Source: Nitrospinaceae bacterium (GTDB lineage Bacteria; Nitrospinota; Nitrospinia; Nitrospinales; VA-1). Taken from it: DNA of 64,000 bases. The DNA is taken from NCBI GenBank assembly GCA_029261455.1, contig JAJDBH010000017.1, positions 5,563 through 69,562 on the forward strand, given 5' to 3'. Positions 47,094-53,638 of the stretch are shown piece after piece. The number at the start of each line of letters is the position of its first letter. The first letter of the stretch is position 1. A model generated the notes under the pieces. It searched no databases. It was not told the DNA's origin and saw only the letters and a list, made by a program, of their open reading frames with translations. Position numbers and translations under genes: made by a program.

Positions 47094-47645
47094 TTATTTT
47101 CTGAAGGAGACTTCAAATAAATCCTTAATTGCCTTTTTACCGTTAGCACTTAAAAAACGGGTGCCGGTTCCAGCAAAGGATTTGCATTTTATTTTTGGCT
47201 GTTTTTCTTTTTTCCAAGAGTCGCTACTCCACTTGAACCAACAGTCCTGCTCCTGGTCAAAAACGTGGAGAGGTTTGTTACACAGTTTGCTGAATTCCGC
47301 GCCCCACCCTGTTCCACCTTTGACAGTTCCATCATCGAGAATTTGCCCTACAACAAACACTTCTTCAGCACAATTGATCTGATGCCAAATACTCTGCAGA
47401 ACTTTTTTGAACAGCTTGCCAGTATTAAATTTACGATTCATCAGTTTGGAGATATAAGCTAAGCTGACATCACCTTTAAGCAGTTCATCGGTGGTCAACA
47501 CCCTCACCCCTCGTGAGCGAAAGATTTTATGTCCCTCAAAAGTCAAATTCACTTCTTGGGCACCCACCTTCTCGCTCTGCTTGCCAAACTCAGCCTCGGC
47601 ACCTTGAGCACCACCACTGTATAAAACAAAATTTTGCGGTTTCAT
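47094..47645 (-). CDS. LOG/DprA-like (SLOG superfamily) Rossmann-fold protein, function unknown
   Basis: 183 aa. N-terminal strand plus Gly-rich loop VLYSGGAQGAEAEFG, and a later GGTGWGAEF motif. These resemble the GGxxGxD and GGxGTxxE loops of the LOG/DprA/YpsA clade. Ends 6 nt before larC. Confidence 0.4.
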   Translation of the reverse strand: MKPQNFVLYSGGAQGAEAEFGKQSEKVGAQEVNLTFEGHKIFRSRGVRVLTTDELLKGDVSLAYISKLMNRKFNTGKLFKKVLQSIWHQINCAEEVFVVGQILDDGTVKGGTGWGAEFSKLCNKPLHVFDQEQDCWFKWSSDSWKKEKQPKIKCKSFAGTGTRFLSANGKKAIKDLFEVSFRK

Positions 47646-47761: not shown

Positions 47762-48046
47762 CTAAACTTTTTTAAAGAAGCGGCTCAAAATACCCTTCTT
47801 CTTCACCTTCTGACCATGATCATGGACAAGATCCTCCATGACTGTGGCCTTTTCCTGATTCTGGTCGATAAAGAGTTGAATGAGAATATGGCAGGAATGA
47901 CAACCTCCACCGGCCTCACAAGCACCTGTGACGGAATCAATATCTTTTAAATTATCCTTGGCAATGACTTCGCGAATAGTGCTCTCTTTAACCTGATAGC
48001 ACTGGCAAATGACTTCGTCGATTTCAACAGCAGGCGGAAGATTCAT
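47762..48046 (-). CDS. BFD-like [2Fe-2S]-binding domain protein
   Basis: 94 aa. C.C....................C.AGGGC.SC pattern (ICQCYQV...TGACEAGGGCHSC). Confidence 0.75.
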   Translation of the reverse strand: MNLPPAVEIDEVICQCYQVKESTIREVIAKDNLKDIDSVTGACEAGGGCHSCHILIQLFIDQNQEKATVMEDLVHDHGQKVKKKGILSRFFKKV

Positions 48047-48223
48047 GAATTCAAAGCAATAAAGTGTGAGCCCAGAATGATAACGATTCTCAATATTTTA
48101 ACTCAATCGTGGCCTGATGTCTACTATGCTATAAATATTTGCTGTGAGGATAACAAGCTAATAAAAAAGATCCTATTTGGTGAAATTTATTCCCGATTTT
48201 CAGTATCCAAGTTAGTGTCAAGC

Positions 48224-48496
48224 TCACCATTTTACTATCTCAAATAGGTTACTAAAATCATCCGTCCAGTTGATGGGCTTGAGTACATTGTACCAATCAT
48301 CCTGAAAACTTCCAACATCGTCATCATTGATAAAGGCTTGATTACTGGTAATATTCACCCAATCGATACTGACATCAAGGCTATCACTACTGACACCATC
48401 TTCTATGAAAATCGCTTCTTTGTATGCATGGATAGCCATTTGACGTATAACATCTGCAATCTGCGTTCTCACACAGTCTGGGCCGAAAGCGGACAC
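48224..48496 (-). CDS. acidic hypothetical protein
   Basis: 90-aa ORF with a GTG start and no clear RBS. Asp/Glu-rich (for example INDDDVGSFQDDWY) and contains Trp. No homolog recognised, so coding status is uncertain. Confidence 0.35.
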   Translation of the reverse strand: MSAFGPDCVRTQIADVIRQMAIHAYKEAIFIEDGVSSDSLDVSIDWVNITSNQAFINDDDVGSFQDDWYNVLKPINWTDDFSNLFEIVKW

Positions 48497-48650
48497 TAAC
48501 GCCTAAAGTAGCAACTGCGTAACAGTCTAGCCATAAATTGGCGATACAACCATCCTTGTTATTTTTGAAGGGGTCAAGTCGCTACTTGACTATATCTCAA
48601 CCCTGAGTTCTGTTGTTGGGTTTTATCTTTGTGGCACAAATAATGGTAGG

Positions 48651-48772
48651 GGGAGTATCCTTCGAGTGCCTCAGGATGGCGATGGAAAAAGCCAACTCTC
48701 TCTCAAACATCAAACCTTCAAACGATCAGGCTTGAGCACCTATGAAGGGAGGGAAGTAAACTTCACGTCTTC
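48651..48772. repeat. copy A of a ~120-nt intergenic repeat
   Basis: My hand alignment with 49943-50062 shows about 13 substitutions and one 1-nt indel over about 117 nt. The shared core is atccttcgagt.cctcaggatg...aagccaac...ccttcaaac.atcaggcttgag..cctatgaagg.agggaagta. Confidence 0.75.
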
Positions 48773-48865
48773 GAGTGTTTTCCCTTTTCAACTCCAACTA
48801 CTGATTCAATAAGAGCTCCTATAGTTTCCTTCTAGTTTTCATCTGGATTAATATATATCTATTAC

Positions 48866-49918
48866 CTATTCAGAGCTTTCACCGTCAAAGGTTGATGGAA
48901 TACTGTGGTGGGTTTTAATAACTTCAAAAATGTCCATCACTTCTTTATGTATATCACTCGAATCAAATGCCACCCTTAAGTTCTCATACGAAGAATATGC
49001 TCCAAAGTCAGGAATTTTAAAATTTTCAGCGACGGCTCCCATGTCGAATCTGATATCGCTTAAATTATCAGTATTCTGGTGGTTGGTTAACAAAATATAA
49101 GCGGGAGAAGCATCTTTCCCTTTTATTGTCAGTCTATCTTCAGCCCCTCTAATAGAGGCGACAGCTTCATTTATCCATTTAGTTGACTCTAGGTTTGTAA
49201 TGTCTTCGGGGGTGTTGATGTTGATGAAAATAATTCTTTCGTAATCGGCACTCTTCTTTAGAGCAAGGTGTAGCTGGCTGGAGATTGCACCTGAGTTTTT
49301 ACCGTGAGTTCTTGCCTTGGCCTCAACAGAAAATTTTCGACCGCTCTTAATATTTTTAGCCGTGAATTCGCAGTGAGTAGTACTTAGATCATCTTCATTC
49401 TCAAGGTCGACCTCAAACCCTGCTAATATGCAAAACGCTGCCACTTGTGTTTCATAATGTGCACCCAAAAATTGATTTGGGTTTTTTAGTCGCTCTATTA
49501 ACTTCTCTTGCAATTCTGAGTTATCTGCCATGAGGTATAGATTGTAGGAAAGCCTTAATAATGCAGATATCGCTCCCAGGGTGGAGACAGTTTGGGTTTC
49601 ACCAGGGCCTTGTTTGTTTTCCCTACGATAGGAAACCATAGCATGATGCCATTGTAGAATTGGATGTCTAGACTCTTTACTCAATTCCTTCTCTATCCAT
49701 TCCTCGCCTAAAAGCGCTCTAAGGTAAACGGGAAGAACATCGTGAAATGTTTTACATTCTCCTGAATCAAAAATTCCCCTTCCAATTGCAAGAAATCTTC
49801 TTCCTTGAAATTCGGTGGAGATAATGGGCCTTCCGTGACCTTGCTCTGCAATTCTCTCTTCCTCTAGCACCTTCTTTTCTTGAAGTGATTTTAATACTTC
49901 AGGAGGGATTTCTGACAT
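48866..49918 (-). CDS. hypothetical protein with a PD-(D/E)xK nuclease-like motif arrangement
   Basis: 350-aa ORF. The central segment HYETQVAAFCILAGFEVDLENEDD...CEFTAKNIKSGRKFSVEAKAR gives helix-E, strand-D and strand-ExK in the order expected for the restriction-endonuclease fold. No other domain recognised. Confidence 0.45.
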   Translation of the reverse strand: MSEIPPEVLKSLQEKKVLEEERIAEQGHGRPIISTEFQGRRFLAIGRGIFDSGECKTFHDVLPVYLRALLGEEWIEKELSKESRHPILQWHHAMVSYRRENKQGPGETQTVSTLGAISALLRLSYNLYLMADNSELQEKLIERLKNPNQFLGAHYETQVAAFCILAGFEVDLENEDDLSTTHCEFTAKNIKSGRKFSVEAKARTHGKNSGAISSQLHLALKKSADYERIIFININTPEDITNLESTKWINEAVASIRGAEDRLTIKGKDASPAYILLTNHQNTDNLSDIRFDMGAVAENFKIPDFGAYSSYENLRVAFDSSDIHKEVMDIFEVIKTHHSIPSTFDGESSE

Positions 49919-49942
49919 CGGTATTTGCTTTAATTATAAAGG

Positions 49943-50062
49943 TGGAACATCCTTCGAGTACCTCAGGATGACAATGGGAAAAGCCAACCCTCCCTCAATC
50001 ATCAAGCCTTCAAACAATCAGGCTTGAGTCCCTATGAAGGTAGGGAAGTAACTTCCCGTCTT
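49943..50062. repeat. copy B of the ~120-nt intergenic repeat
   Basis: See copy A. Copy B ends 25 nt upstream (in the minus-strand sense) of the 350-aa ORF start. Confidence 0.75.
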
Positions 50063-50142
50063 TGCTGGTGTATTTTTTGGCCCTGCGCCGAGCAGTGTAA
50101 TTGTACTCAGGGAGTAGCACCGCCGACCTACTGAATTAAGTG

Positions 50143-50838
50143 TCAGATACTGAGAATCAGTTTGAATAACGGCACGCGACTATAAAGAGAAAAAAACTCT
50201 CGCTGAACATCAGAAAGCTCGATGTCCAGATGGGCTCCTGGCTTCAGACCAAATGCCTTCATCTCAACAACAGGTAATCCGTCGGCAAATACATTTGAAG
50301 CCAAGACATCATGATAGGTCAATTGGTCATTTTCTAATTGAATCACTATGCGGGATCGGCCGAAATCAAATTTTTGAAAGTATTTGCCTTCTATCGCTTT
50401 ATTGATCCTCCTGAAGCGCTCTTGATTTAGCATCAGGTTCACATCCACCCCACCCACCTGACTCGAACGACCTGCGGTGATAGCTATCAGACTATTGGAT
50501 TTTTGTGGCCAGTCCTTAGCAGATGGTAAAATTGGAATTTGAAATGCGGCTACAAAATAAGTTTCCATACCCACCTGTTCGCAGGGGCGGATTTTGAAGT
50601 CCTCAAAATGATCCCCCAAAACTGATGAGAAAAACTGGCCTTGACTCTGACACTGATCTAAAGTGCCAACCTCCAGCTTAATGGTTCCCCAACCCTTCAC
50701 ACCACCGTCCTGACTCAATGCAACGCGGTTCAAGTCTCCAATATTCACCTTTGAAGACAGTTCGAGCTTGCAGGCACTTAAAGACAGAGCCAAAAAAAAG
50801 GAGAACAATAAATGTCCGGTGATTTTCATGTCAGACAA
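50143..50838 (-). CDS. hypothetical lipoprotein
   Basis: 231 aa. Signal peptide with lipobox LSLSAC. No family recognised. Confidence 0.55.
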   Translation of the reverse strand: MSDMKITGHLLFSFFLALSLSACKLELSSKVNIGDLNRVALSQDGGVKGWGTIKLEVGTLDQCQSQGQFFSSVLGDHFEDFKIRPCEQVGMETYFVAAFQIPILPSAKDWPQKSNSLIAITAGRSSQVGGVDVNLMLNQERFRRINKAIEGKYFQKFDFGRSRIVIQLENDQLTYHDVLASNVFADGLPVVEMKAFGLKPGAHLDIELSDVQREFFSLYSRVPLFKLILSI

Positions 50839-50885
50839 AATAACAGATTAAACGGGAGTTACCCCGTTCATGAAAGGCGGGATAA

Positions 50886-52271
50886 CTACAGATGAGACAA
50901 TGCTGGTTTCCCTACAGGATAAACATTAAAACCTATCTCGTAGAGAGCTTGATGATCCAGATGATTTCTTCCATCAAAAATAAAAGCGGGTTTTTCCATC
51001 TTATCAAAAATTTTCTGGTAATCCAGATCCTTATATAAAGACCATTCGGTGATCAACGCAATGCCATGCGCGCCCTCAACCGCTTGGTAGGGATCTTCAA
51101 TGAACTCCACATTCTCTTTAGTATCATGCAGGTCTTTACGGGCATTGTCCAGAGCATAGGGATCGGTAATTTTCAAGTCGGCCTTTTCTTCAAGAAGCCG
51201 TTTGCAAATATAAATCGCCGGAGCATCTCGGGTATCCCCTGTATCTGGCTTAAAGGCAAAGCCAAATACCGCCAACTTCTTCCCGACCAATGTATTGAAC
51301 ATGGCCTGTAGAATACGGCTGACATATCTTTCCATTTGGTAATCGTTGATAGATACAACCTGCTCCCAAAAAGCAGCCACTTCATTCAATTGGTAATACT
51401 CGCATAAATAGACCAGGTTCAAGATATCTTTACGGAAACAAGACCCACCAAACCCTGGCCCAGCATTTAAAAATTTGGAACCGATCCGAGAGTCCATACC
51501 AATCGCACGAGAAACCTCCGTCACATCAGCCCCTGTCACCTCACATAGGGAAGCAATTGTGTTGATGGAAGAGATTCTCTGGGCGAGAAAAGCATTAGCT
51601 ACGAGTTTTGAAAGCTCGCTACTCCATAAATTGGTGGTTATCAAGCGTTCTTTAGGAACCCAATGGAGGTAAATATCCATCAAATCATCACGGGCCGCTA
51701 TCCCCGATGGAGTATCTTTTGAACCAATTAAAATCCGGTCCGGAGATTCCATATCTCTGATCCCCGTCCCTTCGGCCATGAATTCAGGATTCGATAGAAT
51801 TTCAAACTCGACAGAATTATTTCCGGAATGAAGGATCGTCGACAAGGCCTCAGCGGCACGAACAGGAAGTGTGCTTTTTTCCACAACAATTTTATTGGTT
51901 TTTGAGTTTTCTTTTATGCGTCGTGCTATTTTTTCAATAAACTGCAGGTCCACAGCTTTTCCGGCGCCTTCTCCAAACATTTTGGTTGGAGTGTTGACAC
52001 TGACAAAAATGATGTCAGCCTCATCAATACAACGGTCAATATCCGTAGAGAAAAACAAGTTTTTCCCACGGGCAGTCAGCACACGTTCCTTCAACCCTGG
52101 TTCAAAGATAGGAAGCTTGTCGGAGTTCCAAGCATCAATCCTTTCCTGTGAAATATCAACAACCGTCACCTTATACTCAGGACATTTATTGGCGATAACG
52201 GTCATGGTCGGTCCCCCGACATAACCTGCCCCAACACACAAAATATTTTTTTTGAAATTTTCAGATGTCAT
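50886..52271 (-). CDS. ugd: UDP-glucose 6-dehydrogenase (long, eukaryote-like form)
   Basis: 461 aa. N-terminal Rossmann motif CVGAGYVGG and catalytic Cys region GFGGSCFRKD. Confidence 0.9.
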   Translation of the reverse strand: MTSENFKKNILCVGAGYVGGPTMTVIANKCPEYKVTVVDISQERIDAWNSDKLPIFEPGLKERVLTARGKNLFFSTDIDRCIDEADIIFVSVNTPTKMFGEGAGKAVDLQFIEKIARRIKENSKTNKIVVEKSTLPVRAAEALSTILHSGNNSVEFEILSNPEFMAEGTGIRDMESPDRILIGSKDTPSGIAARDDLMDIYLHWVPKERLITTNLWSSELSKLVANAFLAQRISSINTIASLCEVTGADVTEVSRAIGMDSRIGSKFLNAGPGFGGSCFRKDILNLVYLCEYYQLNEVAAFWEQVVSINDYQMERYVSRILQAMFNTLVGKKLAVFGFAFKPDTGDTRDAPAIYICKRLLEEKADLKITDPYALDNARKDLHDTKENVEFIEDPYQAVEGAHGIALITEWSLYKDLDYQKIFDKMEKPAFIFDGRNHLDHQALYEIGFNVYPVGKPALSHL

Positions 52272-52304
52272 TAATAACTTTTCGGTAAAAAGGGAAAGAG
52301 GCTT

Positions 52305-52345
52305 TAAGAAAAAAGGCCTAGCCCTGAACGGACCAGGCCTTTTTA
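52305..52345 (-). terminator. intrinsic terminator after the multihaem cytochrome gene
   Basis: Minus strand: AAAAAGGCC...(loop)...GGCCTTTTTT, about 20 nt after the stop. Confidence 0.6.
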
Positions 52346-52363
52346 TTTAGGAAACAGTAAAAA

Positions 52364-53278
52364 TCACTTTTTATAATTATAGGCTTTTTTCTTGCCATTA
52401 TAAGGTTTAGTACCTTTTGTGAACTTCAGCTTACCTTTGTCATTGATCTCAAAATCTTCAATTAACAGAGGGGTTTTCTCCGTCTGACCAACTTGTTTGG
52501 CACGTTCGTCTTTCTTCTCCAGTTTCTGGTCCGCATTATCCTCGTTCCAGTAATCTGCGATTTTATGAACTTTCAACTTTCTTTCTTCAAAGTTGAATTT
52601 GTATTTATCGTGAACCTCAGGTTTGAAAGGCGTGTTCTTATGTGTGTGACACCGGGTACAGACATTGGAATAATCCCATCGCTGCCCGTAGGTTTCCGTC
52701 TCTGCTTTAGTGAAATTTCCTTTGGATGATTTCATCACCGCACGGAACTGAGAACCACCAGCAACCGCGTGACACATTTCACATCCAACCTGCTCCTTAT
52801 TCGGCTCAGTCGGGTCTATTTTAGTAGCTGTATCTTTGCCCTTTTTATTCTTGCTACCTGCTGGTTTGAATCCACCTTTTTGACGATACCCTGTAGTGTG
52901 ACAACGTAAACAAAGTGGGGTCGTGGTGTAATCTTTTTCAGGATCCAGTTTAACCCTTAATTTAGCTTCTTTACGCTCTCCTGGCTTCAACAATTCATAA
53001 GTGCCACCATGAGGTGACTTGGCCCAAGCCTGGTAATAGGCATCATGGCAACTGCCGTTACATTTAACAGCGCCAACATATTTTGGTTTTTTCCTCATAT
53101 CCTTAACCGCTTTAGCACGTTTTTTAGGTTTGACTTCCCACTTGTCAAACATGGCTATTTCTTCTGCAGTCAATTTAACTTTCTTTTTCTTCTTTTTAGC
53201 GTCCGCCTCAATACCAGTTCCAAAGACCAAGACTAAGGAAACCAAAACCAAACTCAGAACTTTCACTATTCTTCCCAT
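52364..53278 (-). CDS. tetrahaem c-type cytochrome
   Basis: Signal peptive present. Three CxxCH sites (CLRCH, CEMCH, CTRCH) and one CxxxCH site (CNGSCH). I chose the ATG at 53278 (GGGAG 6 nt upstream) over the TTG at 53284. Confidence 0.8.
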   Translation of the reverse strand: MGRIVKVLSLVLVSLVLVFGTGIEADAKKKKKKVKLTAEEIAMFDKWEVKPKKRAKAVKDMRKKPKYVGAVKCNGSCHDAYYQAWAKSPHGGTYELLKPGERKEAKLRVKLDPEKDYTTTPLCLRCHTTGYRQKGGFKPAGSKNKKGKDTATKIDPTEPNKEQVGCEMCHAVAGGSQFRAVMKSSKGNFTKAETETYGQRWDYSNVCTRCHTHKNTPFKPEVHDKYKFNFEERKLKVHKIADYWNEDNADQKLEKKDERAKQVGQTEKTPLLIEDFEINDKGKLKFTKGTKPYNGKKKAYNYKK

Positions 53279-53638
53279 TTTCAACTCCCTTTTCTCCAGA
53301 AAACTTACAAGTATTCGAGGCTATATTTATGCAATAGTCTTGATAGATAAATGAACCCATCAGTTCTATATGCTTAACGACACGATGAAGGATAATATAA
53401 AACCCTTATTGGGTCAATAGCCATTGGAGGAGTACTTTAATGGCGATGAGCATAGACTTTATATAGCCAATAAAGAGATATAGACGGCTTAGCAACCACT
53501 TGCTATATTTACCCCTGCAATTTAAGGATTAAATGAAGTGGCTACCACCTCTTCCCAAGGGATCGAGTTAGTTTCTTGCGTAAAACCACTCTCTCCACTA
53601 TCTATAAATAAACAACATCAAATCTCGGGCTAACCTCT

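What the first reader, a model, noticed from the sequence alone, without database searches (positions are those of the whole stretch)
48047..50142. Repeat-bracketed accessory pocket: PD-(D/E)xK-like 350-aa protein plus acidic 90-aa ORF
Seen in sequence:
- Between a BFD-like ferredoxin gene and a lipoprotein/ugd block lies a ~2.1-kb stretch with unusually low coding density for this window.
- It holds two minus-strand ORFs with no recognisable homologs.
- Two diverged copies of a ~120-nt element (48651-48772 and 49943-50062) bracket the larger ORF. One copy ends 25 nt upstream of the 350-aa ORF start. The other lies 94 nt past its stop and about 155 nt upstream of the 90-aa ORF.
- The 350-aa protein has helix-E (YETQV), strand-D (EVDLENEDD) and strand-ExK (FSVEAKAR) in the order and spacing characteristic of restriction-endonuclease-fold nucleases.
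- The small ORF is strongly acidic.
- No methyltransferase, integrase or transposase is adjacent.
Inference: this could be a stand-alone nuclease-based conflict module (defence, toxin/immunity or a homing-type selfish gene) acquired or duplicated via the flanking repeats. It is the most accessory-looking locus in the window.
Basis: partly seen in the sequence, partly recalled or inferred. Interest (0 to 1): 0.65.

Follow-up and report, generated by a model that had tools for sequence, protein, structure and literature searches.

The report
Inserted nuclease-like gene plus small repeats
A marine Nitrospina-type bacterium carries, at a spot where its relatives have nothing, a single inserted gene for a restriction-enzyme-like protein of a large unnamed family that often sits beside phage-defence genes; the two 125-base repeats near it are separate small mobile-type elements that did not bring the gene in.

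Summary
The ORFs and the two ~125-nt repeats are real and lie where stated. The 350-aa protein (X) does have homologs: more than 2,500 clusters, none named in Pfam, NCBIfam or PADLOC. Typical members are ~540 aa, with an N-terminal SEC-C zinc motif and a C-terminal extension that X lacks.

The AlphaFold model, the invariant E156/E184/E199-x-K201 and consistent but weak Foldseek hits support a PD-(D/E)xK fold.

X is accessory. Three X-less relatives (71-90% identical neighbour protein) have an uninterrupted DUF7424→←RidA-RecO junction. X sits there only in the window and two close relatives, as a ~1.2-kb single-gene cassette.

Elsewhere the family lies on plasmids and near type I, III and IV restriction, Abi and toxin-antitoxin genes. 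A solitary defence-type DNA nuclease is therefore the best guess; it is untested.

The 125-nt repeats did not bring X in. The upstream copy is missing in both close relatives and the downstream copy in one of them. They are mosaic REP/MITE-like elements built from hairpin modules, one of which recurs across many phyla. One copy sits at a synteny breakpoint.

The acidic 90-aa ORF has gene-like codon usage but no homolog anywhere, and it never accompanies X elsewhere.

Overall this is moderately interesting: a new variant of known kinds.

The parts
48866..49918 (-). Gene X: 350-aa core-only member of a large unnamed family. It has an N-terminal domain of unknown fold (residues 1-145) and a PD-(D/E)xK-like domain (residues ~146-345).
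   Evidence: ORF. 967 and 2,569 homologs. AF2 pLDDT 82, pTM 0.86, with an alpha-beta-beta-beta-alpha-beta core. Invariant E156, E173, E175, H182, E184, E199, K201, R203. Foldseek top hits are PD-(D/E)xK nucleases. dN/dS 0.15-0.24.
49940..50064 (-). Repeat copy B: ~125-nt mosaic REP/MITE-like element. It lies 78 nt after the DUF7424 stop codon and about 21 nt before the X start codon.
   Evidence: 87% identical to copy A. Absent at the orthologous site in L005 and L006, so it reads as an insertion of ~130 nt. A copy 96% identical sits at a different junction in L006.
48648..48773 (-). Repeat copy A: the same element, 93 nt after the X stop codon, at the point where synteny with relatives ends.
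   Evidence: Similarity to L005 ends at window position 48838, and the RidA-RecO block expected downstream is nowhere in the window.
49948..49972 (-). Hairpin module 1 inside copy B: GTCATCCTGAGGTACTCGAAGGATG. The copy A equivalent is at 48656-48680.
   Evidence: The pattern CATCCTGAGGNNCTCGAAGGAT occurs in more than 119 genome stretches from many phyla. The stem covaries around a constant loop. No Rfam family matches.
50000..50028 (-). Hairpin module 2 inside copy B: CTCAAGCCTGATTGTTTGAAGGCTTGATG. The copy A equivalent is at 48708-48736.
   Evidence: Found in 9 marine metagenome stretches with unrelated flanks, some next to a TGCAAAGGTCTC terminal motif of Nitrospina MITE-like elements.
50126..50137 (-). 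Left short direct repeat bounding the X cassette (AATTCAGTAGGT), directly after the DUF7424 stop codon.
   Evidence: Three-way comparison: X-less relative L146 has one copy exactly at the junction, and L005 has two copies flanking X. In the window the match is 10 of 12, reached by 153 of 5,000 shuffles.
48796..48806 (-). Right short direct repeat bounding the X cassette (AATCAGTAGTT).
48224..48496 (-). ORF90: acidic 90-aa lineage-specific ORF. It is not part of the X cassette and lies beyond the rearrangement point.
   Evidence: It hits only itself among 5.8 billion clusters. Its codon-usage score of 0.171 is within the range of real genes (mean 0.247, sd 0.10; off-frame 95th percentile -0.10). 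There is no tblastn hit in the hotspot regions of relatives.

Best explanation
**Shown**
- The interval is a variable spot at a junction of convergent genes in a marine Nitrospinaceae genome.
- The ancestral order is ...cytochrome c554-ugd-DUF7424 → ← (small ORF)-RidA-RecO-Ogt.
- In the lineage of this window, a ~1.2-kb single-gene cassette carrying X was inserted directly after the DUF7424 stop codon. It is bounded by a short imperfect direct repeat.
- X is a truncated, core-only member of a very large unnamed family. The usual architecture is an N-terminal SEC-C zinc motif, a conserved N-domain, a PD-(D/E)xK domain and a C-terminal extension.
- The two 125-nt repeats are later, independent insertions of a mosaic REP/BIME/MITE-like element made of hairpin modules. 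Each landed about 80-95 nt downstream of a stop codon, in the sense orientation.
- The copy downstream of X coincides with a rearrangement that replaced the RidA-RecO side with ORF90-BFD-LarC.
- ORF90 is an unrelated lineage-specific ORFan.

**Inferred**
- X is a Mg2+-dependent DNA nuclease whose active site is formed by E156, E184, E199 and K201.
- It acts alone as a defence or conflict enzyme, either like a type IV restriction enzyme or like an abortive-infection (Abi) effector. The conserved N-domain would supply target or trigger recognition.
For: **Fold**
- AF2 models have pLDDT of 82 and the canonical alpha-beta-beta-beta-alpha-beta order.
- Invariant acidic and lysine residues sit at the canonical positions.
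- With the domain-only model, named Foldseek hits in both PDB and BFVD are almost all PD-(D/E)xK enzymes. Examples are the SPARDA nuclease (E 8e-3), Hjc (probability 0.94), HindIII (0.91), EcoRV, SfsA, MGME1, RecU, Mrr-like and VRR-NUC.

**Accessory status**
- X is absent at the same junction in L145, L146 and L149/L150, and present in L005, L006 and the window.
- Cassette boundaries and the short direct repeat.
- Purifying selection, dN/dS 0.15-0.24.

**Conflict context of the family**
- Type I RM directly adjacent, twice, once with an integrase on a 20-kb plasmid.
- Type III RM with an HTH_17 gene.
- GmrSD and HEPN_AbiU2 two genes away.
- MazE/PIN, AbiEi and IS3, an RHS toxin island and a plasmid leading region.

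**Repeats**
- Empty sites in relatives.
- Modules dispersed elsewhere.
- Covarying stem.
- No Rfam match.
Against: - No Pfam, NCBIfam, PADLOC or PDB sequence match exists for the core.
- In the window itself, and in L002, the neighbours are housekeeping genes, so the defence context is borrowed from distant relatives.
- X lacks the SEC-C motif and the C-terminal extension of typical members and might be functionally reduced.
- The flanking direct repeat is short and only modestly significant on its own (p about 0.03).
- No target-site duplication or terminal inverted repeats could be defined cleanly for the 125-nt element.
- No transposase or RAYT (REP-associated tyrosine transposase) was found near the hairpin motif.
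Confidence: 0.6

Rival explanations
1. X is a selfish, homing-type endonuclease cassette. It cleaves the empty DUF7424/RidA junction in related genomes and is copied in by recombinational repair, and it confers no defence.
For: - It is a single-gene cassette inserted at one precise intergenic site with short flanking repeats.
- Synonymous divergence of X between the three carriers (dS 0.22-0.27) is lower than that of flanking genes. It rises with distance: DUF7424 0.33-0.52, ugd 0.40-0.55, cytochrome c554 0.87. This is the pattern expected for recent spread with co-conversion of flanks.
Against: - Family members occur in many unrelated contexts, such as plasmids and RM or Abi islands, rather than at one conserved target.
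- The dS gradient is equally explained by ordinary homologous-recombination transfer or by different codon constraints.
- Only three carriers were compared.
Confidence: 0.12
2. X and the acidic 90-aa ORF form a two-gene toxin/immunity or toxin/antitoxin module.
For: - The two genes share a strand.
- ORF90 is acidic (pI 4.05), as nuclease inhibitors often are, and has gene-like codon usage.
Against: - ORF90 has no homolog anywhere.
- It is absent beside the X orthologs that are about 90% identical in L005 and L006, and beside all other family members examined.
- It is separated from X by 369 nt containing a repeat and a synteny breakpoint.
Confidence: 0.04
3. The two 125-nt repeats are the ends of a composite mobile unit that moved or duplicated X.
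For: They bracket X in the window as direct repeats 1,292 nt apart.
Against: - L005 carries X at the same site with no copy, and L006 lacks the upstream copy.
- The L006 copy is 96% identical to copy B but lies on the other side of X, fused to its 3' end, which argues for independent insertion.
- No second copy of X is present in the window.
Confidence: 0.04
4. The 125-nt element is a functional structured RNA, such as a 3'-UTR stabiliser, a processing site or a small RNA, rather than a mobile repeat.
For: - Both copies, and the L006 copy, are in the sense orientation 0-95 nt after a stop codon.
- Across phyla, hairpin module 1 is co-oriented with the upstream gene in 62 cases against 30, at a median of 84 nt after the stop codon.
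- A C-to-T change in copy A keeps a G-U pair only on the transcribed strand.
- The stem covaries.
- Copy B folds better than shuffles on the minus strand (z = -2.2).
Against: - Copy A does not fold better than shuffles (z = 0.26).
- The element is present or absent at orthologous sites and has a mosaic module composition.
- No Rfam family matches.
- The two readings are not exclusive, since REP elements act in both ways.
Confidence: 0.15
5. X is a housekeeping DNA repair or recombination nuclease (resolvase-like, as Hjc or RecU) that happens to sit next to RecO in relatives.
For: The best structural neighbours include Hjc and RecU. In L005, X lies near RidA-RecO-Ogt.
Against: - X is absent from close relatives that keep RecO-Ogt.
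- Its distribution is patchy, on plasmids and in defence islands.
- It is much larger than resolvases and has an extra conserved N-domain.
Confidence: 0.05

Closest known systems
PD-(D/E)xK (restriction-endonuclease-like) nucleases: Hjc/RecU resolvases, type II enzymes such as HindIII and EcoRV, and the nuclease domain of short-pAgo SPARDA systems
   Same: - Predicted alpha-beta-beta-beta-alpha-beta core.
- A glutamate in helix 1, an acidic residue at the start of beta2 and ExK in beta3.
- These enzymes are the top structural neighbours.
   Different: - No sequence-profile match to any Pfam or NCBIfam PD-(D/E)xK family.
- 'D' is replaced by E within an invariant H-C-E-F.
- There is a 145-residue conserved N-domain with no match.
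- Structural E-values are only 0.003-0.1.
Solitary type IV (modification-dependent) restriction enzymes such as Mrr and GmrSD, found next to type I RM systems
   Same: - A single-gene nuclease-like protein directly beside hsdRMS twice, and near GmrSD once.
- A Mrr-like protein appears among the BFVD structural hits.
   Different: - No Mrr_cat or GmrSD domain.
- No evidence of modification dependence.
- In this window no RM system is nearby.
Rugutis, a 359-aa single-gene lactococcal plasmid antiphage (Abi-like) protein. It has an N-terminal SEC-C motif and a fold reported to have no PDB match, and it is triggered by the phage terminase large subunit (PMC11381338, PMC12184496, PMC13064643).
   Same: - The family of X typically starts with a SEC-C motif. 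P0004 (394 aa) is SEC-C plus core, similar in size to Rugutis.
- It is single-gene and occurs on plasmids or in defence islands.
- It gives no strong PDB match.
   Different: - Homology could not be tested because the Rugutis sequence was not retrievable.
- tblastn of X and of P0004 against 72,556 plasmids listed no Lactococcus record.
- The window protein itself lacks the SEC-C motif.
REP/BIME/REPIN elements of Proteobacteria, and MITEs such as Correia or Nezha elements
   Same: - Short intergenic elements built from imperfect palindromic units, combined as mosaics.
- Located after stop codons, present or absent between close relatives, and sitting at rearrangement points.
- Inverted doublets that form long hairpins occur in Mucilaginibacter.
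   Different: - Module 1 is nearly identical across many phyla, whereas classical REPs are species- or genus-specific.
- No RAYT or transposase partner was identified.
- No clean terminal inverted repeats or target-site duplication were found for the 125-nt element.

Membership tests
PD-(D/E)xK nuclease superfamily | Core fold alpha1-beta1-beta2-beta3-alpha2-beta4 | tested here: met
   DSSP of the AF2 models gives H150-165, E168-172, E185-189, E195-202, H213-221, E227-233. pLDDT is 82 in both the full-length and the domain-only model.
PD-(D/E)xK nuclease superfamily | Conserved acidic residue(s) and (D/E)xK on alpha1, beta2 and beta3 | tested here: met
   E156 (alpha1), E184 (start of beta2) and E199-A-K201 (beta3) are invariant in alignments of 30 and 63 sequences down to 42% identity.
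PD-(D/E)xK nuclease superfamily | Significant structural or profile similarity to established members | tested here: inconclusive
PD-(D/E)xK nuclease superfamily | Metal-dependent phosphodiester cleavage | not testable with these tools
   Needs biochemistry.
Rugutis-type SEC-C antiphage proteins | N-terminal SEC-C zinc-binding motif | tested here: not met
   The window protein starts directly with the core. The motif is present in 14 of 30 aligned relatives (PF02810, SecA C-terminal peptide hits at E 1e-5).
Rugutis-type SEC-C antiphage proteins | Sequence or structure homology to Rugutis (pUCCL633_059) | not testable with these tools
   The sequence is not held in the paper text or supplements. 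No Lactococcus record was listed by tblastn against plasmids.
Defence-island genes (guilt by association) | Recurrent location next to known defence systems or on mobile elements | tested here: met
   About 8 of 13 distinct family contexts carry RM, GmrSD, Abi, TA or toxin genes, or integrases, within about 5 kb. This is not true of the window itself.
Known anti-phage system models (PADLOC-DB 2.0) | Profile match | tested here: not met
   No hit at E ≤ 1 for X or ORF90.
Two-gene toxin-antitoxin or toxin-immunity module (X + ORF90) | Conserved co-occurrence and tight linkage of the two genes | tested here: not met
   ORF90 has no homolog. It is absent beside all other X genes. The gap between them is 369 nt, with a repeat in between.
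Composite transposon or repeat-mobilised cassette | The gene travels together with both flanking repeats | tested here: not met
   L005 has X with no repeat. L006 has X with only a 3' copy.
REP/BIME/MITE-like intergenic repeats (the 125-nt element) | Dispersed copies with presence/absence polymorphism at orthologous sites | tested here: met
   Copy B is missing in L005 and L006. L006 has a 96%-identical copy at another junction. Modules occur in 9 metagenome and more than 119 genome stretches.
REP/BIME/MITE-like intergenic repeats (the 125-nt element) | Palindromic hairpin units | tested here: met
   Of 322 loop-motif occurrences, 188 have a stem of at least 5 bp (chance is about 0.7% each), with many different complementary stem sequences.
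REP/BIME/MITE-like intergenic repeats (the 125-nt element) | Terminal inverted repeats plus target-site duplication (MITE), or a cognate RAYT/transposase (REP) | tested here: inconclusive
   A possible CACC/CCACCTT junction repeat is the only candidate. No recurrent transposase was found in 119 loci. Whole genomes were not available.
Described RNA families (Rfam 15) | Covariance-model match | tested here: not met
   Nothing matched at the repeats in the window or in 26 related loci.

The most novel reading that the evidence does not exclude
X represents a very large, unannotated family of stand-alone anti-phage nucleases (more than 2,500 clusters at 50% identity). Its architecture is a SEC-C zinc motif, a novel sensor domain, a PD-(D/E)xK effector domain and a C-terminal extension. 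The family may be the one that includes the experimentally validated but mechanistically blank Rugutis, which would give that system its first catalytic-domain assignment. Separately, the 25-nt hairpin embedded in the repeats (GTCATCCTGAGGnnCTCGAAGGAT, with a covarying stem and a constant loop) would be an undescribed REP-like module shared by Bacteroidota, Nitrospinota, Nitrospirota, Armatimonadota, Patescibacteria, Chloroflexota and Alphaproteobacteria. That breadth implies a conserved mobilising or binding factor.
Probability: 0.3. Interest if true: 0.6.

Novelty: new variant of a known kind. Interest (0 to 1): 0.42.

Why it matters
**The protein family**
- If the inference holds, a family seen in thousands of genomes and annotated only as 'SEC-C domain protein' or 'hypothetical' gains a testable function. 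That function is a solitary restriction-fold nuclease in defence islands, with a clear mutagenesis target (E184, E199, K201).
- It also suggests a direct comparison with Rugutis, whose effector chemistry is unknown.

**The locus**
- It is a clean natural example of a single-gene cassette gained at a junction of convergent genes.
- It also shows small hairpin repeats marking rearrangement points in uncultured Nitrospinaceae.

**The hairpin module**
- If it is not already described, it would raise the question of what conserves a 25-nt palindromic unit across phyla.

Tried and rejected
**Searches that found nothing**
- Pfam, NCBIfam, PADLOC, PHROGs and PDB sequence searches found nothing for the X core or for ORF90.
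- Rfam at gathering and at E-value thresholds found nothing at the repeats, in the window and in 26 loci.
- tblastn against phage genomes matched only the SEC-C motif.

**Structure searches**
- Full-length Foldseek against PDB gave no hit below E 0.06. The domain-only model was needed to see the consistent PD-(D/E)xK signal.

**Attempts to reach Rugutis**
- A literature search for the hairpin sequence returned only unrelated primers.
- The Rugutis sequence could not be reached. The paper has no held supplements, tblastn of X and P0004 against plasmids listed no Lactococcus record, and a 25-aa SEC-C peptide query returned nothing.

**Other checks that led nowhere**
- Looking for a transposase or RAYT near the hairpin motif by all-vs-all clustering of 2,112 ORFs from 119 loci found only a regulator-like family in 14 loci.
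- The promoter/terminator scan of the pocket was not above shuffles.
- Looking up ORF90 to identify its source contig returned only the short Logan contig.
- Cluster-member names gave only 'SEC-C motif' or 'hypothetical protein'.

**Readings rejected**
- The TA-pair reading, for the reasons given under rival explanations.
- The composite-transposon reading, likewise.
- A protein-coding origin of the repeat. Differences between the two copies are mostly non-synonymous in every frame (read by eye from the alignment).
Full report
**Observation**

The region is as described. Minus-strand ORFs of 350 aa (48866-49918, called X here) and 90 aa (48224-48496) lie between a BFD-like [2Fe-2S] gene (47762-48046) and a DUF7424 lipoprotein gene (50143-50838), which is followed by ugd. 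Two direct copies of a ~125-nt element (48648-48773 and 49940-64) are 87% identical. They are the only long repeat family in the 64-kb window. Base composition is unremarkable.

ORF90 finds only itself.

**What X is**

No Pfam, NCBIfam, PADLOC, PHROGs or PDB sequence match covers X.

The closest relatives (70-91% identity, 344-373 aa) come from Nitrospina/Nitrospinales metagenome bins. At about 45% identity, typical members are ~540 aa, with an N-terminal SEC-C zinc motif (PF02810, matching SecA C-terminal peptides at E about 1e-5) and a ~170-aa C-terminal extension. X has neither. In a 75% relative (L002/L003), the non-coding DNA just after the short gene still reads ...ELIDISQLAKLYCECLTYHAMKTQR, which is the end of the long-form extension. 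The short form therefore arose by internal deletion.

AlphaFold2 models are confident:
- Full length: pLDDT 82.4, pTM 0.86.
- Residues 135-350 alone: pLDDT 81.8.
- Both show H150-165, E168-172, E185-189, E195-202, H213-221 and E227-233, which is the alpha-beta-beta-beta-alpha-beta order of restriction-endonuclease-like enzymes.

Invariant residues sit where the catalytic set is expected. These are E156 on helix 1, E184 (in H-C-E-F) at the start of beta2, and E199-A-K201 on beta3. E173, E175, H182, R203 and Q215 are also invariant.

Foldseek with the whole model gave nothing below E 0.06. With the domain-only model, the named top hits in two independent libraries are almost exclusively PD-(D/E)xK enzymes:
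- PDB: the SPARDA nuclease (E 8e-3), Hjc (probability up to 0.94), HindIII (0.91), EcoRV, SfsA, MGME1, RecU and DdmD.
- BFVD: 'nuclease', RecU, Mrr-like, VRR-NUC and 'restriction endonuclease' entries.

**Accessory or core**

The neighbouring DUF7424 protein was used as an anchor. Relatives whose DUF7424 protein is 90%, 79% and 71% identical to the window's were examined (L145, L146, L149/L150). All share the order enolase-DivIC-HU-QueA-cytochrome c554-ugd-DUF7424 → ← small ORF-RidA-RecO-Ogt-DctMQ, with no X. X is present directly after DUF7424 only in the window and in two close relatives, L005 (Nitrospinaceae bin OFTM91) and L006.

Comparing junctions gives the cassette limits:
- L146 reads ...TGA CTCTTAATCAGTAGGT|TTCCAAAAAC...
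- L005 reads ...TGA CTAGTAATTCAGTAGGT|CGGCG...[X]...CTAATTATTAGTAGGT|TCTCAAAAAC....

A ~1.19-kb cassette (5' leader, X, about 70 nt of 3' sequence) is therefore bounded by a short imperfect direct repeat that is single in the X-less genome. In the window the two copies are at 50126-50137 and 48796-48806. The match there is 10 of 12, which 3% of shuffles reach, so this detail is suggestive only.

X is under purifying selection (dN/dS 0.15-0.24). Its synonymous divergence between the three carriers (0.22-0.27) is lower than that of DUF7424 (0.33-0.52), ugd (0.40-0.55) and cytochrome c554 (0.87). This suggests more recent sharing of the cassette and its near flanks.

**Context of the family elsewhere**

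| Context | Neighbours |
|---|---|
| Metagenome contig | hsdS-hsdM-hsdR follow X after one small gene |
| 20-kb Caballeronia plasmid | tyrosine integrase, X, then hsdS-hsdM-hsdR |
| Metagenome contig (L131/L132) | type III Res/Mod and an HTH_17 gene upstream |
| IMG/VR contig L127 | GmrSD two genes downstream |
| IMG/VR contig L129 | HEPN_AbiU2 two genes downstream |
| Metagenome contig | MazE/PIN |
| Rhizobium plasmid | IS3 and AbiEi |
| 4-Mb genome | RHS toxin with orphan cassettes |
| Agrobacterium pAt plasmid | leading region |
| Nitrospinales contig L002 | housekeeping genes |

About 8 of 13 distinct contexts carry known conflict genes within ~5 kb, and no partner gene is conserved. This is the pattern of a stand-alone defence gene. 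Isolated phage genomes do not carry it.

The only experimentally studied protein I found with the same headline architecture is Rugutis. It is a 359-aa lactococcal plasmid protein with an N-terminal SEC-C motif, a fold reported to have no PDB match, and toxicity triggered by the phage terminase large subunit (PMC11381338, PMC12184496, PMC13064643). I could not obtain its sequence, so homology is a lead, not a result.

**The 125-nt repeats**

They did not carry X:
- L005 has X with no copy. L006 lacks the upstream copy, and the alignment shows a clean ~130-nt insertion in the window.
- L006 has a copy 96% identical to copy B, but fused to the 3' end of X, where it supplies the stop codon. Beyond it the sequence is unrelated.
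- In the window, similarity to L005 stops at 48838, next to copy A. The RidA-RecO block is nowhere in the 64 kb. In both genomes that have a copy 3' of X, therefore, it marks a synteny break.

The element is a mosaic, with no full-length copy elsewhere:
- **Module 2** (CTCAAGCCTGATnGTnTGAAGGCTTGATG) occurs in 9 marine metagenome stretches with unrelated flanks. Some lie beside a TGCAAAGGTCTC end motif that forms the terminal inverted repeats of other Nitrospina MITE-like elements.
These come from Bacteroidota, Nitrospinota, Nitrospirota, Armatimonadota, Patescibacteria, Chloroflexota, Omnitrophota and Methylobacterium, include cultured isolates, and are often multi-copy or in arrays.
- In those loci the loop GAG-S-nn-S'-TCGA recurs with many different complementary stems, such as ATCCT/AGGAT, ATGCT/AGCAT and GTGCT/AGCAC. 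Of 322 occurrences, 188 have a stem of at least 5 bp, and S/S' are complementary in all of the common loop variants.
- The motif is mostly intergenic. It is co-oriented with the upstream gene in 62 cases against 30, at a median of 84 nt after the stop codon. The window copies match this, at 78 and 93 nt after the stop codon and in the sense orientation.
- No Rfam family matches, and no transposase recurs nearby.

The best description is a REP/BIME/MITE-like element. An RNA-level role in 3' UTRs is compatible and not excluded. Copy B folds better than shuffles on the minus strand (z = -2.2), but copy A does not.

**ORF90**

Its codon usage is gene-like: 0.171 per codon, against 0.247 ± 0.10 for real genes and -0.10 for the 95th percentile of off-frame windows. 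It is acidic. It is an ORFan and lies beyond the rearrangement point. It is 369 nt from X and never accompanies X elsewhere. It is not a conserved partner.

**Verdict**

X is an accessory, restriction-fold, probably defence-type nuclease gene. It was gained as a single-gene cassette, it belongs to a big family rather than being an orphan, and neither the 125-nt repeats nor the acidic ORF are part of its system.

- Shown: the anatomy, the homolog counts, presence and absence across relatives, the polymorphism of the repeats and the dispersal of their modules.
- Inferred: nuclease activity, the defence role and the way the cassette was inserted.

Interest is moderate. The kind is familiar (a solitary PD-(D/E)xK gene in variable regions, plus REP/MITE-like repeats). 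The family is large and unnamed, a link to Rugutis is testable, and the cross-phylum hairpin module deserves a separate look.

Noticed in passing
window 49948-49972 and 48656-48680; loci L008-L126: A 25-nt hairpin unit (GTCATCCTGAGGnnCTCGAAGGATG) is shared almost exactly by genomes of many phyla. It is often multi-copy, in tandem arrays or in inverted doublets. The stem covaries around a constant loop, and the unit is biased 2:1 toward the sense orientation after stop codons. It is not in Rfam. I do not know whether it has been described.
   Followed up: partly
L002 9057-9200 and L003 1982-2125: Non-coding DNA just after the short X homolog still encodes the last ~25 residues of the long-form C-terminal extension (ELIDISQLAKLYCECLTYHAMKTQR). 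The short Nitrospinales forms therefore arose by internal deletion.
   Followed up: partly
window 48866-53284 versus L005 and L006: Synonymous divergence rises with distance from X: X 0.22-0.27, DUF7424 0.33-0.52, ugd 0.40-0.55, cytochrome c554 0.87. This looks like recent recombinational sharing of the cassette together with its near flank.
   Followed up: partly
L146 7195-8544; L145 6730-6987; L149 6690-6975: The DUF7424/RidA convergent junction is a hotspot. L146 carries an HDOD/HD-domain gene plus a 62-aa ORF there. A conserved ~85-aa ORF with CxxCH-like motifs lies on the RidA side and is not always called as a gene.
   Followed up: no
L031, L069, L075 (Nitrospina bins), around the motif hits: Other Nitrospina MITE-like elements have terminal inverted repeats (GAGACCTTTGCATAA ... 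TTATGCAAAGGTCTC). These enclose two hairpin units in inverted orientation.
   Followed up: partly
L009, L042, L051, L059, L112, L121 (one Armatimonadota bin): Runs of a ~20-nt tandem unit ending in CGCCATCCTGAG(G) or CGCCAAGTTACCAA lead into the full hairpin motif, followed by a conserved GAGCAGCATGATAA. This is a distinct array-type element in that genome.
   Followed up: no
L029 347-462: Two hairpin units in inverted orientation form a ~110-nt perfect hairpin in Mucilaginibacter. It is picked up only as weak microRNA-precursor-like matches in Rfam, and it resembles a REPIN doublet.
   Followed up: no
window 47094-47645 (-): A 183-aa ORF between LarC and the BFD gene has no Pfam or NCBIfam match. 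It starts with a YSGGAQGAE-type glycine-rich motif and has gene-like codon usage.
   Followed up: no
L006 3203-3216: In L006 the repeat element is fused to the 3' end of X and provides its last residues and stop codon (...IPSTFSS*). The junction has a CCACCTT repeat on both sides of the element.
   Followed up: partly
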